64,000 nt of DNA from a virus. Numbering within the stretch: position 1 is the first letter of the stretch; each line of letters begins with the position of its first letter. The translations under genes and the position numbers were made by a program. The notes under the pieces were generated by a model. The model did no database searches. It saw only the letters and a list, made by a program, of their open reading frames with translations, and was not told the origin of the DNA. The stretch covers positions 46,869-110,868 of IMG/VR virus record IMGVR_UViG_3300042691_035156; one strand, 5' to 3'. Of the stretch, positions 605 through 60,742 are shown piece after piece.

Positions 605-1036
605 TTAATTGTTTATATTTTTTTCAATATTGTCCAGCTTGCTCATCAGCATTGCTATCTTTGAAGAAACGACTAATGGTTTATAGTACTGAAGATAATC
701 TTCTTCATATATTGCCACTTCATCAACAACATATTCCTCTTCATCTCGATCATAAGTCACCCTTTGTGCATATACGGTTATGTCAATGTCTCCATTTAAA
801 TAATAACCTGGGGTAGCGGCAGAGAGATCAACATCAATAAGAGAATTTATTTCTTCTATTTTTGATTCAATTTCGTCAACATTTTTTGCCAACCTTGCAA
901 CATCTAAAATCATTTGATCGTTATGTAGGTTTAGCATTTCGCTAGAAATAGGACCACTATACGGTTGCCTGTTCCTGGTAAAGTTTGGTTGAAATATGTT
1001 TTCTCTTTTATTGAAAAGCGAATATGAGTAAGGCAT
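605..1036 (-). CDS. Small coiled-coil virion structural protein
   Basis: 143 aa, AGGAG RBS, GPISSEMLN motif followed by heptad-like helix; contains ATP motif. Confidence 0.65.
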   Translation of the reverse strand: MPYSYSLFNKRENIFQPNFTRNRQPYSGPISSEMLNLHNDQMILDVARLAKNVDEIESKIEEINSLIDVDLSAATPGYYLNGDIDITVYAQRVTYDRDEEEYVVDEVAIYEEDYLQYYKPLVVSSKIAMLMSKLDNIEKNINN

Positions 1037-1043
1037 GATTCTC

Positions 1044-3239
1044 CTAATGCTTAAACTTTACCGTATAGGAAACTATGGATGGGGAGGAGCTATACGACTC
1101 TCCCCTAAGCATGTCTGCCCTAAGCCTAATGGCCTGAGGACCGTTTCCTGTATTGCTATAGTAGTAGACCTTTGAGCCTTCTTTTATTTCTTCTGTTCTT
1201 CTGTAGACAATTTCATAATTATTTTCATAATTAATTATAGAGTATACATTATCAATATTTGAATAATAGGTTCTTAAATCTTCAACTTTTACTTCATAAA
1301 GATAATTTTTAAATAATTTAACTCCAGGTATAGAAAGTATTGACTTATCTTTTAACAAAGCTATAGTGCCATTAAACGGCACTTGGACCCCAGAGGTGTT
1401 GTTTGTTGATTTATTGATAACAATTATAAGGTCGTTTCTACCTTGTTTTATCGGCCAAGTTAGGCTTGCACTCAAAACCCCTGGAGAAAGAGAAGAGTTA
1501 GCAGTTATGTCAACTCCATTAACATAGATTCTTATGTCCCAATACTGGGCAGCGAGATCTTTCAAAAGTGTCTCAGTAAGATTCAGTGAATTTTCTGAAT
1601 ATATATTAGTTGAAATATAAATACTTCCATAGGGAATTGATTGAGCTGTAAAAAAGTTTTGAGACAAGGGAACATCTCTGGAGAATGTTGTGTAAACGAC
1701 GTCAGATCTTTCCCCTGTCAATACCTGCTGCCAACTTTCTTTATCAAGAGATACTTCTGCAGCCAAGTGTACTGTTAGTTGATTGTTGTCAACATTTTCT
1801 AAAATGTAAGAATCATATGGCCTTATGTCTTGAGGAAATTTGGTTAATCTATAAAGATTAAAATCAATATTTTGAGAATCGCTTGCATAGAAGTAATTGG
1901 TTATAGGATTGTTAAAAGTTTGTGATCTTGGAATCTGATACATTACATTTCCAGTAGAAATTATATCTTCAGACTCACTTAAGAATATAGTGGACTCAAC
2001 CAATTGAGAACCATTAAAGTTTATAACTGCTGGAGAGGTTGGATTTTTTGCGTTTGTAGGAGATATTGATGTCCAATTGTAGTCATATACATTTACTGCC
2101 GTTGGATTGTCTGGAGCAATGTAATACCTTATATTTGAGCCCTGAGGAATCTGATCTTCAACGCTTATGCTTACTGCATCTATTGTAAGCTTTGAGTTAT
2201 CTGCAGATGGTAGTGACATAGGCTGGCTAACAAATATTGCGTTTGAATCGTAATATGGTGCAGTTATGACCAGTTCATCAATTCTAAAATCGTAATTATA
2301 TACAACATCTTCGTTGTCCCTAGTGACATAGTCTGGCTCATCTTTTGTTAGATAGATCTCCACTGAATTAGATAATTGTGGGGTGAACGAAAAAGAAAAT
2401 CTATCATAGTCTTTTGAGCTTGTTTTTGTATTGCTAGCTGACCTGCTTCTTTCATTTGGGTCAACAACAATAACTCCAATTGAAACGGGTTTTTGTGAAC
2501 TTATTACTCCCTCTACCAGAGATATTGGCCCAACAACACCAGAAACAGGAACGACTATCTTTAATGTACAAACACCAAGCGTCCTTGACGTGTGCTTATA
2601 CGTCCACTGAGAATTTGTTAGTCCATTAAAAACATTTCTAAAATCTACAGTGTCATCTTTGACCTGGGTTCCCTCAAACACTACTGACACATTTGCAGCG
2701 CTTGATGTATTGAGCAGGTTCCCCACATAGTCAAACAAACCAGAAGTAATTTTTGGTATTGTAACCTTTCTTGATTGAGTGTCAACATAGGCTGTAGTGT
2801 AGTTGAGATCAGTCAAGTTTGTATTGTTAAAGGCATTAGTTATACTAAAGTAAAAACCATCTGTATTTTTTATGGAAAAAAGATAATCGTCTACAGTTTT
2901 TTCAAGCTCTGCCCTTTTTGTTCTAAGAGATTCTAATCTCTTAGAATACGCTGTGACCACCTCATACAGCTTCTCTACATGCTCATGATAAGCTTCATAT
3001 ATTACGTCAATATTAAACAGCATGTGCACCATTATTCTGTTTAACTTTTCTGCGTCTATTACAGAGTTGGTTGAAAGATCGTTGTATGGTACCGGAATCG
3101 AATTGCCTAAAGGAAATCTAGAAAAGTATCTTCCATAAAGAATGGAAACTTCGTTATCAGATGGTTGACCACCTAGGGCGTAGTACATCTTAAATATTGT
3201 TTCTATAAATCTTCTTTTTTGTATATCTGCGATTGACAT
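1044..3239 (-). CDS. Baseplate-associated structural protein (helical N-terminus plus beta-sandwich domains)
   Basis: 731 aa, tightly packed with neighbours; C-terminus (IRLRADM...SPSIVSYTVKF) resembles that of the adjacent 842-aa protein. Confidence 0.6.
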   Translation of the reverse strand: MSIADIQKRRFIETIFKMYYALGGQPSDNEVSILYGRYFSRFPLGNSIPVPYNDLSTNSVIDAEKLNRIMVHMLFNIDVIYEAYHEHVEKLYEVVTAYSKRLESLRTKRAELEKTVDDYLFSIKNTDGFYFSITNAFNNTNLTDLNYTTAYVDTQSRKVTIPKITSGLFDYVGNLLNTSSAANVSVVFEGTQVKDDTVDFRNVFNGLTNSQWTYKHTSRTLGVCTLKIVVPVSGVVGPISLVEGVISSQKPVSIGVIVVDPNERSRSASNTKTSSKDYDRFSFSFTPQLSNSVEIYLTKDEPDYVTRDNEDVVYNYDFRIDELVITAPYYDSNAIFVSQPMSLPSADNSKLTIDAVSISVEDQIPQGSNIRYYIAPDNPTAVNVYDYNWTSISPTNAKNPTSPAVINFNGSQLVESTIFLSESEDIISTGNVMYQIPRSQTFNNPITNYFYASDSQNIDFNLYRLTKFPQDIRPYDSYILENVDNNQLTVHLAAEVSLDKESWQQVLTGERSDVVYTTFSRDVPLSQNFFTAQSIPYGSIYISTNIYSENSLNLTETLLKDLAAQYWDIRIYVNGVDITANSSLSPGVLSASLTWPIKQGRNDLIIVINKSTNNTSGVQVPFNGTIALLKDKSILSIPGVKLFKNYLYEVKVEDLRTYYSNIDNVYSIINYENNYEIVYRRTEEIKEGSKVYYYSNTGNGPQAIRLRADMLRGESYSSSPSIVSYTVKFKH

Positions 3240-3240
3240 A

Positions 3241-59032: not shown

Positions 59033-59041
59033 TTTTTTCTC

Positions 59042-59854
59042 CTAATGCTTAATTATAAAATAAATTCTTTGCGTATTAATTGTATGAGAATGCGAAACGG
59101 TAGCGCTATTACTGGTTAGCCCATCTCCATTCCAAGAAGAATGTTGATGACTTGTAGTAGTACTGTCAAGCGAGTGCTCATGTATGGTCGTATTGTTTGC
59201 AAGCGTATGCACGTGTGCTCCCATGTTTGCGTTTACTCCGCTAATTCCGTTGTGGGTTGAATGAGCGCTGCTTCCGGTTGTTCCGCTTGACGTTGGGTTT
59301 CCGTATGCATAGTTGTGGCGATGATTACTGGTTACTCCATCGCTGCCGTGAGAATGAGAATTATTTGCCGTATTTAAACTGTGCGAATGATTATTCATCG
59401 CTGATGTAGCGTGAAAATGGGACTGGACGTCGCTCTGATCATCAGAAGTAAACTCTCCAGAAACAGTATGATTGTGACTATGACTTGCGTTGGCAGCTGA
59501 AATTGTTGTAGTGCCTCTGGTGCCGCCACCGGCTATGCCCACTGGAACATTTAATTGCATATTCGGAACATTAAATGTTGAGAATCCATCACCAGAACCA
59601 AACGATGTAGAGATCTGATTGAACAATCTTGCGTATGTTGTTCTTGATTCCGCTTGCCCTCCGCACAGCAGCCAACCGCTTGGTGGTGTAGTTGTCCCGG
59701 CCCACGCTTCAATAGTTCCAACTGGAACAATGTCTGATGGAACAAAAGATGTTCCATCATAAGCCAGAGATTGACCATCCAAAACTCCACTGACATCAAG
59801 GCCAATATTGTTTAGATTTAAATTTGATGATGTAGAAAAAAGTTCTTCAGCCAT
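59042..59854 (-). CDS. Tail-collar domain fibre with HxH needle (paralogue 3)
   Basis: PVGTIEAWAG..PSGWLLCGG..SRTTYARLF..FNVPN; ~9-10 HxH; ends YFIIKH. Confidence 0.9.
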   Translation of the reverse strand: MAEELFSTSSNLNLNNIGLDVSGVLDGQSLAYDGTSFVPSDIVPVGTIEAWAGTTTPPSGWLLCGGQAESRTTYARLFNQISTSFGSGDGFSTFNVPNMQLNVPVGIAGGGTRGTTTISAANASHSHNHTVSGEFTSDDQSDVQSHFHATSAMNNHSHSLNTANNSHSHGSDGVTSNHRHNYAYGNPTSSGTTGSSAHSTHNGISGVNANMGAHVHTLANNTTIHEHSLDSTTTSHQHSSWNGDGLTSNSATVSHSHTINTQRIYFIIKH

Positions 59855-59857
59855 AAT

Positions 59858-60742
59858 CTACCTATACTTAATAATAAAATATACAGCAGTTGCATTGACC
59901 GTGTGAGTATGCGATGTGCCGTCACTAGATGTGTTTGTCGTTAGAGCGTGAGTGTGAGAAGAGCCAGCATTGAATGCTTGGTTTCCAAATGTGTGACTAT
60001 GTGAGGATGAGTTAATACCGTGAATGTGATTTCCAACGGTATTTCCTGTGTTGTGGCCATGGTTTGTTGTTGGATTACCGCTTGCCACTCCTGTTGTGTT
60101 TCCACTCAATAAATAAGAATGAGTATGATTAGCGTTCGCATTTCCCCAGTTATGAGAATGAGAAGCGTTTGTTGTTATGTCTGTATTTGCGAAAGTGTGT
60201 GAATGAGCAACGTCGTCACCAGAACTGTTAACGTGAGAGTGAGATGTGTTTGCAGAATTTCCAGTTGTTGATGTATAAGTAAATGTTGACACTTGATGCG
60301 TATGGCTTATTGAATCATTGTCACCAATAGATATTGAGTTTACATTATTTAGCTGATTTGACTCAAGTGCAGCTTGATCAACGCCCGAAGGAGCACGATA
60401 AGTGTCTCCAGTAGTCAAATTAAATTTTGGAAGACTAAATGACAAGCCCGAACCACCAAACCTATATCCAATTACCGAATGTAGCTTTGGATAGTCAGAA
60501 ACATTAACGCTTTGCCCTGCACAAATCAGATAGTCTTGTGGGGGCGTTGCTGAGGCGGTGCCGCTTGCCCACATTCGAATAACGCCAACTGGAATATTAT
60601 CAATGCTTGTTACAAATTTTCCAGAAGAGTAAACAAGTCCACCAGTTAAATACTGATCACCAGCAACAAAAGCTGCAGATGTGTCGATTTCTATTCCTTC
60701 TGTGGAGATATTTGATGATATAGAAAAGTTTTCAGTAGCCAT
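59858..60742 (-). CDS. Tail-collar domain fibre with HxH needle (paralogue 2)
   Basis: PVGVIRMWA..YLICAGQ..YPKL..FSLP; 10 HxH; ends YFIIKYR. Confidence 0.9.
   Translation of the reverse strand: MATENFSISSNISTEGIEIDTSAAFVAGDQYLTGGLVYSSGKFVTSIDNIPVGVIRMWASGTASATPPQDYLICAGQSVNVSDYPKLHSVIGYRFGGSGLSFSLPKFNLTTGDTYRAPSGVDQAALESNQLNNVNSISIGDNDSISHTHQVSTFTYTSTTGNSANTSHSHVNSSGDDVAHSHTFANTDITTNASHSHNWGNANANHTHSYLLSGNTTGVASGNPTTNHGHNTGNTVGNHIHGINSSSHSHTFGNQAFNAGSSHTHALTTNTSSDGTSHTHTVNATAVYFIIKYR

What the first reader, a model, noticed from the sequence alone, without database searches (positions are those of the whole stretch)
605..60742. Ala-Thr-Pro (and Ser-Thr-Pro) motif scattered over external virion proteins: candidate modification sequon
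Seen: about 26 ATP tripeptides in the window's proteins. Eleven (plus 6 STP) are in the 1560-aa baseplate protein, where under one would be expected from composition. Others: three in tandem in the 842-aa protein, two each in the terminator and second sheath, one in the main sheath (NPATPGD). The giant internal or ejected proteins (about 7400 aa together) have only two. Synonymous codons vary, so selection is at the peptide level. Inference: a surface-loop tag for O-glycosylation or hydroxylation by the encoded GT and 2OG oxygenase, or a docking site for decoration fibres. Virion glycosylation is known in some actinobacteriophages, but I know of no such dispersed sequon.
Basis: partly seen in the sequence, partly recalled or inferred. 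Interest (0 to 1): 0.8.

Follow-up and report, generated by a model that had tools for sequence, protein, structure and literature searches.

The report
Ala/Ser-Thr-Pro tag on phage baseplate

Summary
The window's ORFs hold 26 ATP. The 1560-aa protein (14659-19341, minus strand) holds 11 ATP and 6 STP against 0.30 and 0.56 expected, and 5000 shuffles never exceeded 4 ATP or 5 [AS]TP.

The tag belongs almost entirely to this one protein family. More than 120 metagenomic homologues (32-79% identity) carry 7-31 copies, many at conserved positions, some at lineage-specific ones.

Three smaller neighbours keep sites while their flanks diverge: the sheath, a 246-aa protein and a 547-aa protein. The sites in the giant internal proteins are not conserved.

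All sites lie in predicted loops. Thr is the constrained residue. A nested clade of five homologues lost almost every copy, keeping Pro (30/54 cells) but not Thr (8/54), at unchanged Thr content. Distant Bacillus-phage homologues lack the tag.

This points to a trans-acting reader, most likely an O-glycosyltransferase.

A pair of GT2 genes flanking a dTDP-glucose-dehydratase-like gene was found in 9 of 10 genomes tested; the exception is a fragment. Whether the tag-less clade lacks this pair could not be tested.

Earlier notes of this scan report the same tag in at least ten other related genomes. No chemistry exists.

The parts
14659..19341 (-). 1560-aa outer baseplate-module protein, the main tag carrier. 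It has 17 [AS]TP sites: ATP68 (19132-19140), ATP254 (18574-18582), STP434 (18034-18042), ATP443 (18007-18015), ATP708 (17212-17220), STP716 (17188-17196), ATP793 (16957-16965), ATP851 (16783-16791), ATP880 (16696-16704), STP1076 (16108-16116), ATP1090 (16066-16074), STP1187 (15775-15783), STP1378 (15202-15210), ATP1405 (15121-15129), ATP1435 (15031-15039), ATP1516 (14788-14796), STP1542 (14710-14718).
   Evidence: Counts and coordinates. The gene lies directly downstream of the phrog_6 baseplate wedge gene; its only PHROG hit is 'virion structural protein'. AlphaFold2 places all sites in coil, and the C-terminal half is a row of Ig-like domains. Eleven sites are conserved in at least 19 of 27 diverse homologues.
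50977..52260 (-). Tail sheath protein (427 aa) with one tag, ATP152 (51799-51807).
   Evidence: PHROG tail-sheath hits. The site is kept in two complete relatives although its flanks differ: NPATPGD, PGATPGW, TGSTPNS.
52316..53056 (-). 246-aa virion structural protein with two tags, ATP224 (52379-52387) and ATP242 (52325-52333, three residues from the C-terminus).
Evidence: phrog_20284. Both sites are conserved in G002 and G004 with diverged flanks.
53058..54701 (-). 547-aa protein of unknown function next to the sheath, with tags ATP71 (54483-54491) and ATP244 (53964-53972).
   Evidence: Both sites are ATP in G004. In G002 site 244 reads TTP and site 71 is lost. No Pfam, PHROG or PDB match, so 'second sheath' is unverified.
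605..1036 (-). 143-aa protein with one tag, ATP74 (809-817).
   Evidence: Conserved in G002 with different flanks, not in G004.
3241..5769 (-). 842-aa virion protein with three tandem G-ATP-x-Y units (4243-4287) and STP828.
   Evidence: This stretch does not align with the G002 or G004 homologues, so it is a local repeat of this phage.
55036..56019 (-). 327-aa protein with ATP55 and STP98.
   Evidence: STP98 is kept in G002 and reads STS in G004. ATP55 is not conserved.
56500..57576 (-). Probably not part of the tag system.
   Evidence: Pfam PF00534. Absent from 9 tag-bearing relatives.
57567..58208 (-). Probably not part of the tag system.
   Evidence: Pfam PF13640. The family has 0 to 8 copies in relatives and is absent from near-complete G004 and G007.

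Best explanation
[Ala/Ser]-Thr-Pro is a short Thr-centred tag displayed on turn-like loops of the outer baseplate protein of a large clade of uncultured aquatic phages of about 200 kb. It also occurs at a few sites on the sheath and two neighbouring virion proteins.

It is kept by selection because a trans-acting factor reads it. The most likely reading is an O-glycosylation sequon. In the infected cell's cytoplasm, a phage glycosyltransferase would put a sugar on the Thr hydroxyl of each exposed tag before or during tail assembly, giving the host-proximal end of the tail a glycan coat.

The best candidate writers are the two GT2 enzymes found in every informative relative tested. In this contig they flank a dTDP-glucose-4,6-dehydratase-like gene at G000 36.4-40.1 kb, about 7-10 kb before the window. 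They are not the GT4 and 2OG oxygenase of the window.

Shown here:
- the enrichment;
- conservation of sites, and lineage-specific sites at new positions;
- loop location in the models;
- constraint that falls specifically on Thr;
- block loss in one nested clade;
- presence of the GT2 pair in every informative genome.

Inferred, not shown:
- that the modification is a sugar;
- which gene does it.
For: 1. Enrichment. The protein has 17 [AS]TP against 0.85 expected.

2. It is a family trait. The 120 homologues listed (32-79% identity) carry 11-27 copies where about one is expected. In 27 diverse members, 499 of 591 TP follow A or S, and [AS]T is followed by P 10.8 times more often than expected.

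3. Conservation and turnover. Eleven sites are kept in at least 19 of 27 sequences with A/S swaps. Other sites exist only in sub-lineages, where the remaining sequences have unrelated tripeptides such as EDP, HYD or PND.

4. Thr is specifically preferred. In the [AS]xP context, T is 8.8 times enriched, S 1.4 times, and D and N 0.4-0.5 times.

5. Block loss. Of about 85 large homologues found by exhaustive HMMER, six have 0-2 tags. Five of them form one clade nested inside tag-rich lineages. At 11 tag columns these six keep Pro in 30/54 cells and A/S in 27/54, but Thr in only 8/54. Their Thr content is 5.6-9.5%, and TP is close to expectation.

6. The fold does not require the tag. Bacillus phage homologues WH1 gp087 and 0305phi8-36 gp163 have one tag each, and site 444 is not kept.

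7. Non-homologous virion proteins keep tags while their flanks diverge: the sheath, the 246-aa and 547-aa proteins, and a 256-aa protein of the relatives.

8. All 17 sites are coil in the AlphaFold2 models. Many lie 1-4 residues before a beta strand or in hairpin loops.

9. Candidate writers. PF00535 genes occur in G000-G005. Orthologues of both GT2s, at 53-63% identity, occur in G004 and G006-G008, where the big protein is only about 35% identical. The only PDB relative of the 242-aa GT2 is GmaR, the cytoplasmic flagellin O-GlcNAc transferase of Listeria (E 1e-7; function per PMC9638930). The contig also encodes a dTDP-glucose-dehydratase-like enzyme, a third GT2, a GT17 and two methyltransferases.
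Against: - No chemistry of any kind exists.
- The GT2 pair is a clade-wide core feature, so its co-occurrence with the tag does not discriminate.
- The pair lies among replication and nucleotide-metabolism genes (DnaB, ThyX, RNR, a deoxyribosyltransferase-like gene). It could instead modify DNA or a host polymer.
- The GenBank record GX15bay has homologues of both GT2s, but only a weak [AS]TP excess (15 against 8).
- The GmaR match covers only about 100 residues of the nucleotide-binding half.
- T-P-[N/D/S/G] is also a good type I turn sequence (own knowledge), and some columns swap DP for TP, so part of the pattern is structural.
- It is unexplained why one baseplate protein should carry nearly all sites while capsid and fibres carry few.
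Confidence: 0.45

Rival explanations
1. The motif is purely structural. Thr-Pro starts a turn or caps a short helix or strand, and each site is kept for local folding reasons with no reader.
For: - All sites are in loops. In three, Pro is the first residue of a one-turn helix. About six lie 1-4 residues before a strand.
- N, S, D and G are the commonest residues after Pro, as in type I turns (own knowledge).
- Pro is retained in 30/54 cells in the tag-less clade.
- Some columns alternate DP with TP.
Against: - Turn and cap positions normally accept S, D and N as well as T (own knowledge). Here T is 8.8 times enriched while S is 1.4 times and D/N 0.4-0.5 times.
- The strict A/S at position -1 (499/591) has no capping rationale.
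- A nested clade lost Thr at nearly all sites at once without a change in composition.
- Bacillus-phage homologues of the same domain lack the motif.
- Sites arise at new loops in sub-lineages.
Confidence: 0.2
2. The motif is a docking site for a protein partner rather than an enzyme substrate. The partner could be decoration or fibre proteins, an assembly chaperone, or a host surface component.
For: - Block loss in one clade and retention elsewhere fit any trans-acting reader.
- The carrier sits at the fibre-bearing end of the tail.
- Several fibre-like proteins of relatives also carry the tag.
Against: - A three-residue motif at about 20 structurally different loops is a weak basis for specific protein-protein docking.
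- No conserved candidate partner was identified.
- The tag also occurs on the sheath and on small proteins, where fibres are not expected.
Confidence: 0.15
3. The motif marks another covalent modification. Either Pro is hydroxylated by the P4H-like 2OG oxygenases, or Thr is phosphorylated by a host kinase, the enzyme coming from the phage accessory set or from the host.
For: - PF13640 oxygenases are common in the clade, with up to 8 paralogues beside the tail genes.
- This window has one such gene.
- S/T-P is the classic proline-directed kinase site in eukaryotes (own knowledge).
Against: - PF13640 and PF13759 are absent from G004 (100% complete) and G007 (90%), which carry 19 and 22 tags.
- In the tag-less clade Pro stays and Thr goes, so Thr, not Pro, is the functionally constrained residue.
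- No Pkinase-family gene occurs in five near-complete relatives.
Confidence: 0.1

Closest known systems
Virion O-glycosylation of mycobacteriophages (Che8, Corndog, Myrna) by phage-encoded glycosyltransferases (Freeman et al. 2023, as summarised in PMC12363180)
   Same: The phage encodes its own glycosyltransferases. The proposed substrates are virion proteins that assemble in the cytoplasm.
   Different: - PMC12363180 describes glycosylation of capsid (coat) proteins and names no dispersed sequon. From my recollection of the primary paper, which is not held in the library, the tail tube is also modified.
- Here the carrier is a baseplate protein with about 20 copies of a three-residue motif.
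- The candidate GT genes are not next to the structural genes.
- Glycosylation here is only inferred.
GmaR, the cytoplasmic GT2 O-GlcNAc transferase that glycosylates Listeria flagellin (PMC9638930)
   Same: It is the only solved relative of the conserved 242-aa GT2. It is a soluble GT2 that modifies Ser/Thr of a protein that will be surface-exposed in a self-assembling filament.
   Different: The match is 35 bits over about 100 residues. The review consulted found no sequon for the Maf flagellin glycosyltransferases and lists none for flagellin (PMC12645811). The phage enzyme is much shorter than the bifunctional GmaR (own knowledge).
Defined bacterial O-glycosylation motifs: the Bacteroidota D-(S/T)-(A/I/L/V/M/T) motif (own knowledge) and the PglL/PglS/TfpO glycotags (PMC12645811)
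   Same: A short peptide motif marks the hydroxy-amino acid to be modified. Sites are scattered over many loops.
   Different: Those systems act outside the cytoplasm with lipid-linked donors and use other motifs. None of the listed sequons is [AS]-T-P.
Chlorovirus PBCV-1 major capsid protein glycosylation by virus-encoded cytoplasmic glycosyltransferases and a methyltransferase, at non-canonical sequons (own knowledge, not checked here)
   Same: A virus-encoded GT-A-type transferase set with methyltransferases and 6-deoxy sugars, acting on virion proteins at a sequon of its own.
   Different: Those glycans are N-linked, the virus is eukaryotic, and the motif is different.
ST-turn and Asx-Pro-turn local structural motifs (own knowledge)
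   Same: Thr-Pro followed by N, D, S or G in loops before strands or short helices.
   Different: Such motifs tolerate S, D or N at the first position and have no A/S requirement before it. They would not be lost as a block in one lineage.

Membership tests
Modification sequon (short motif read by a trans-acting enzyme) | Motif far above the chance expectation from composition | tested here: met
   17 observed against 0.85 expected. No shuffle of 5000 exceeded 5. The excess holds family-wide.
Modification sequon (short motif read by a trans-acting enzyme) | Sites are conserved, and also occur at lineage-specific positions, independently of flanking sequence | tested here: met
   Eleven sites are kept in at least 19 of 27 sequences. 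Lineage-specific sites occur where other clades have unrelated tripeptides. Flanks diverge around conserved sites in the sheath and the 246-aa protein.
Modification sequon (short motif read by a trans-acting enzyme) | Dependence on a trans factor: all sites released together when the factor is lost | tested here: inconclusive
   Block loss in a nested clade, with Thr specifically released, was shown.
Modification sequon (short motif read by a trans-acting enzyme) | Covalent modification of the central residue | not testable with these tools
   This needs mass spectrometry of virions or of co-expressed proteins.
Modification sequon (short motif read by a trans-acting enzyme) | Sites are solvent-exposed | tested here: inconclusive
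   All 17 sites are coil in the AlphaFold2 models (mean pLDDT 68 and 77).
Mycobacteriophage-type virion glycosylation | Phage-encoded glycosyltransferases present | tested here: met
   Three GT2, one GT17 and one GT4, plus a dTDP-glucose-dehydratase-like gene and two methyltransferases on the contig.
Mycobacteriophage-type virion glycosylation | Glycan demonstrated on virion proteins | not testable with these tools
   No culture, no virions.
   PF00534 is absent from 9 tag-bearing relatives. PF13640 is absent from G004 and G007.
ST-turn or N-cap structural motif | The first position is interchangeable with Ser, Asp or Asn | tested here: not met
   In the [AS]xP context T is 8.8 times enriched, S 1.4 times, N 0.5 times and D 0.4 times.
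ST-turn or N-cap structural motif | Located at turns or at the starts of helices and strands | tested here: met
   DSSP strings of both models.
GmaR-like protein O-GlcNAc transferases (for the 242-aa GT2) | Sequence similarity over the whole catalytic domain | tested here: inconclusive
   GmaR is the single PDB hit, E 1e-7, over residues 13-113 only. All NCBIfam hits are far below their cut-offs.

The most novel reading that the evidence does not exclude
[Ala/Ser]-Thr-Pro is a true three-residue O-glycosylation sequon. It is written in the cytoplasm by a conserved pair of phage GT2 enzymes using a phage-made 6-deoxyhexose donor, and it coats the baseplate of a widespread clade of aquatic phages of about 200 kb. 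It would be the first defined O-sequon of a phage and a candidate portable glycosylation tag.
Probability: 0.35. Interest if true: 0.8.

Novelty: new variant of a known kind. Interest (0 to 1): 0.62.

Why it matters
Glycosylation of phage virions is known from only a few actinobacteriophages, and the account I could read (PMC12363180) names no defined sequon for them. A minimal soluble-enzyme O-sequon would matter in three ways:

- It would explain how a large, abundant and uncultured group of lake and sediment phages shapes the host-facing end of its tail, whether for protease or defence evasion or for receptor interplay.
- It would give a sequence-only marker for predicting modified virion proteins in metagenomes.
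- It would offer a small tag plus enzyme pair for cytoplasmic glyco-engineering.

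Tried and rejected
- **DNA-level motif.** Rejected. All wobble positions vary, and GCNACNCC occurs only in frame (11 in frame, 0 in the other frames, 0 antisense).
- **Composition artefact.** Rejected by per-protein expectations and shuffles. The tag also persists in relatives with locus GC from 34% to 55%.
- **Internal repeat domain carrying the motif.** The contexts of the 17 sites show no recurring pattern beyond Gly at -1 (4.6 times enriched) and Tyr at +4 to +6 (about 3.5 times). 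Internal repeats were not searched for directly.
- **GT4 or 2OG as writers.** Rejected by absence from relatives.
- **Phage Ser/Thr kinase.** None found.
- **Reaching the tag-less clade's genomes.** IMG/VR scans with P0179, P0200 and a profile of the clade, a JGI metagenome scan and a GTDB scan all returned only tag-rich relatives. A wider scan with the baseplate wedge protein also stayed inside the clade.
- **An independent phage with the same GT2 pair.** GX15bay has the pair but only a weak tag excess, which is neutral to mildly negative.
- **Fold searches.** They gave generic Ig-like or jelly-roll matches and no functional clue.
- **Primary paper.** The primary mycobacteriophage glycosylation paper is not held in the library.

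Full report
**The window.** The window is the right-hand 64 kb of a single 110,868-bp virus contig. CheckV rates the contig about 53% complete. All long ORFs are on the minus strand. They form a myovirus structural module:
- a sheath and a baseplate wedge;
- giant proteins of 3408, 2006, 1670, 1081 and 1075 aa;
- at the contig end, a GT4, a P4H-like 2OG oxygenase, three tail-collar proteins and a collagen-like protein.

The only cultured relatives are very distant Bacillus jumbo phages such as 0305phi8-36 and vB_BceM_WH1. IMG/VR holds many close relatives, some complete at 200-210 kb with terminal repeats.

My ORF set gives exactly 26 ATP. The 1560-aa protein (14659-19341) has 11 ATP and 6 STP against 0.30 and 0.56 expected.
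- ATP is the most significant tripeptide of that protein (Poisson 4e-14) and its most frequent one.
- In 5000 shuffles, ATP never exceeded 4 and [AS]TP never exceeded 5.
- Codons vary at all three wobble positions. The DNA pattern GCNACNCC is found only in frame.
- The non-structural 46 kb of the contig has 3 ATP, as expected.

**The tag belongs mainly to one protein family.** All 120 listed homologues of the 1560-aa protein (32-79% identity) carry 11-27 [AS]TP where about one is expected.
- In 27 diverse members, 499 of 591 TP dipeptides follow Ala (10 times enriched) or Ser (3 times).
- 57% of [AS]T dipeptides are followed by Pro.
- Neighbouring genes in 45 related loci carry 0-2 copies.
- In two complete relatives fetched whole, G002 and G004, the big protein has 20 and 19 copies. 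The rest of the structural block shows no bulk excess.
- In this window the remaining structural proteins have 22 against 7.8 expected.

A few sites in other proteins are real. The sheath site, both sites of the 246-aa protein, and the two sites of the 547-aa protein (both ATP in G004; one degraded and one lost in G002) persist while their flanks diverge. So do three sites in a 256-aa protein of the relatives. The sites in the giant internal proteins are not conserved.

**Position and structure.** Eleven sites of the big protein are kept in at least 19 of 27 sequences, with Ala/Ser swaps. Other sites exist only in sub-lineages, where the remaining sequences have unrelated tripeptides.

AlphaFold2 models of the two halves (pLDDT 68 and 77) put all 17 sites in coil:
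- in three, Pro opens a one-turn helix;
- about six lie 1-4 residues before a strand;
- three are in hairpin loops;
- two are in a conserved but low-confidence C-terminal tail.

The C-terminal half is a row of Ig-like domains.

**Structural motif or read tag?** Four results favour a reader.
1. The central residue is specifically Thr. In the [AS]xP context Thr is 8.8 times enriched, Ser 1.4 times, and Asp and Asn are depleted. A turn or cap should accept all four.
2. Bacillus-phage homologues of the same domain lack the tag.
3. An exhaustive HMMER search found about 85 large homologues. All have 7-26 tags except six with 0-2. In a tree, five of the six form one clade nested within tag-rich lineages. 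The sixth is sister to a protein with 17 tags.
4. At 11 tag columns these proteins keep Pro in 30/54 cells and Ala/Ser in 27/54, but Thr in only 8/54. Their Thr content is unchanged and TP is close to expectation.

Pro therefore looks structural, and Thr was held by something this clade no longer has. The alignment behind this count was made with a fast MAFFT mode, so it is approximate. The raw tag counts do not depend on it.

- PF00534 (GT4) is absent from 9 tag-bearing relatives, 8 of them at least 90% complete.
- PF13640 varies from 0 to 8 copies. It is absent from G004 (complete) and G007 (90%). PF13759 is absent there too.
- No Pkinase-family gene exists in five near-complete relatives.

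By contrast, GT2 genes are present in G000-G005. Orthologues of both members of a pair (242 and 271 aa here, G000 36.4-40.1 kb) are 53-63% identical even in genomes whose big protein is about 35% identical. The top 120 of 573 homologues of the 242-aa enzyme are all at least 63% identical.
- In this contig a dTDP-glucose-4,6-dehydratase-like gene lies between the two.
- The contig also has a GT17, a third GT2 and two methyltransferases.
- The only solved relative of the 242-aa GT2 is GmaR, the cytoplasmic flagellin O-GlcNAc transferase of Listeria (PMC9638930).

This is suggestive only.
- The pair is a clade-wide core feature, so its presence does not discriminate.
- It sits among replication genes.
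- GX15bay, an unrelated phage record with homologues of both GT2s, shows just a weak tag excess.

The decisive contrast is the gene content of the tag-less clade.

**Comparison with what is known.** Virion glycosylation by phage-encoded transferases is established for mycobacteriophages (PMC12363180). A recent review of bacterial O-glycosylation lists no [AS]-T-P sequon (PMC12645811). The present case would be a new variant: a dispersed three-residue tag concentrated on a baseplate protein.

**Earlier notes of this scan.** The notes I saw, after my own analyses, report the same tag in at least ten other related genomes. One of them claims that loss of the tag goes with loss of two sugar-transferase genes. 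I could not test that claim here.

| Reading | Probability |
|---|---|
| O-glycosylation sequon (best explanation) | 0.45 |
| Purely structural motif | 0.2 |
| Docking site for a protein partner | 0.15 |
| Other covalent modification | 0.1 |
| None of these | 0.1 |

The first, third and fourth readings all assume a tag read in trans; together they come to about 0.7.

Noticed in passing
window 56500-63998: GT4, a P4H-like 2OG oxygenase, a 260-aa ORF, three tail-collar-domain proteins and a collagen-like protein of at least 679 aa (GAT/GPT/GPQ triplets, local GC 49% against 35-41% elsewhere) form an accessory fibre module at the contig end. In the relative G002 this position holds a cluster of seven 2OG oxygenase genes instead. 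The oxygenase and GT4 may act on the collagen-like fibre.
   Followed up: partly
window 14659-14930 (C-terminal ~90 residues of the 1560-aa protein): The tail is predicted with pLDDT below 50. Yet it is among the best-conserved stretches of the family: it is rich in W, P and Y, carries two tags, and ends in acidic residues. It probably folds only against a partner in the baseplate.
   Followed up: no
L003:10001-12326 and other related loci: In many relatives the big protein is split into an N-terminal ORF of about 90-139 aa plus a long ORF, and tblastn match lengths are not multiples of three. This fits the +1 CGG-A recoding that other reports of this scan describe for this phage group. I did not test it.
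   Followed up: no
G000:C1:13555-14298 (outside the window): A 247-aa protein matches Pfam Glyco_transf_17 (E 3e-29), the family of the animal bisecting-GlcNAc transferase. That is unusual for a phage. It lies with two methyltransferases and a GT2.
   Followed up: no
relatives G001, G002, G005, G011, G012: There are seven or eight paralogous PF13640 2OG-Fe(II) oxygenase genes per genome. In G001, G002, G005 and G012 most are clustered next to the tail genes; in G011 they are more spread. G004 and G007 have none. The substrate is unknown.
   Followed up: partly
G002 core genes shared with G004: The shared core includes a subtilase (Peptidase_S8), a ThiF-family E1-like protein, a JAB-domain protein and a ClpB-like AAA ATPase. 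This hints at a phage-borne ubiquitin-like conjugation or deconjugation set.
   Followed up: no
G000:C1:9271-10503 (outside the window): The protein ends in MPKTG followed by a hydrophobic stretch and basic residues, a sortase-type sorting signal. This suggests a Gram-positive host. A related 2.8-kb contig is binned in a cyanobacterial MAG (L198), which is weak and conflicting host evidence.
   Followed up: no
G000:C1:8992-9258 (+ strand, outside the window): An 88-aa ORF on the opposite strand begins with two overlapping ATP tags and holds one STP. It is Ala/Pro/Thr-rich and may be a spurious ORF. It inflates the genome-wide count by three [AS]TP (two of them ATP).
   Followed up: no
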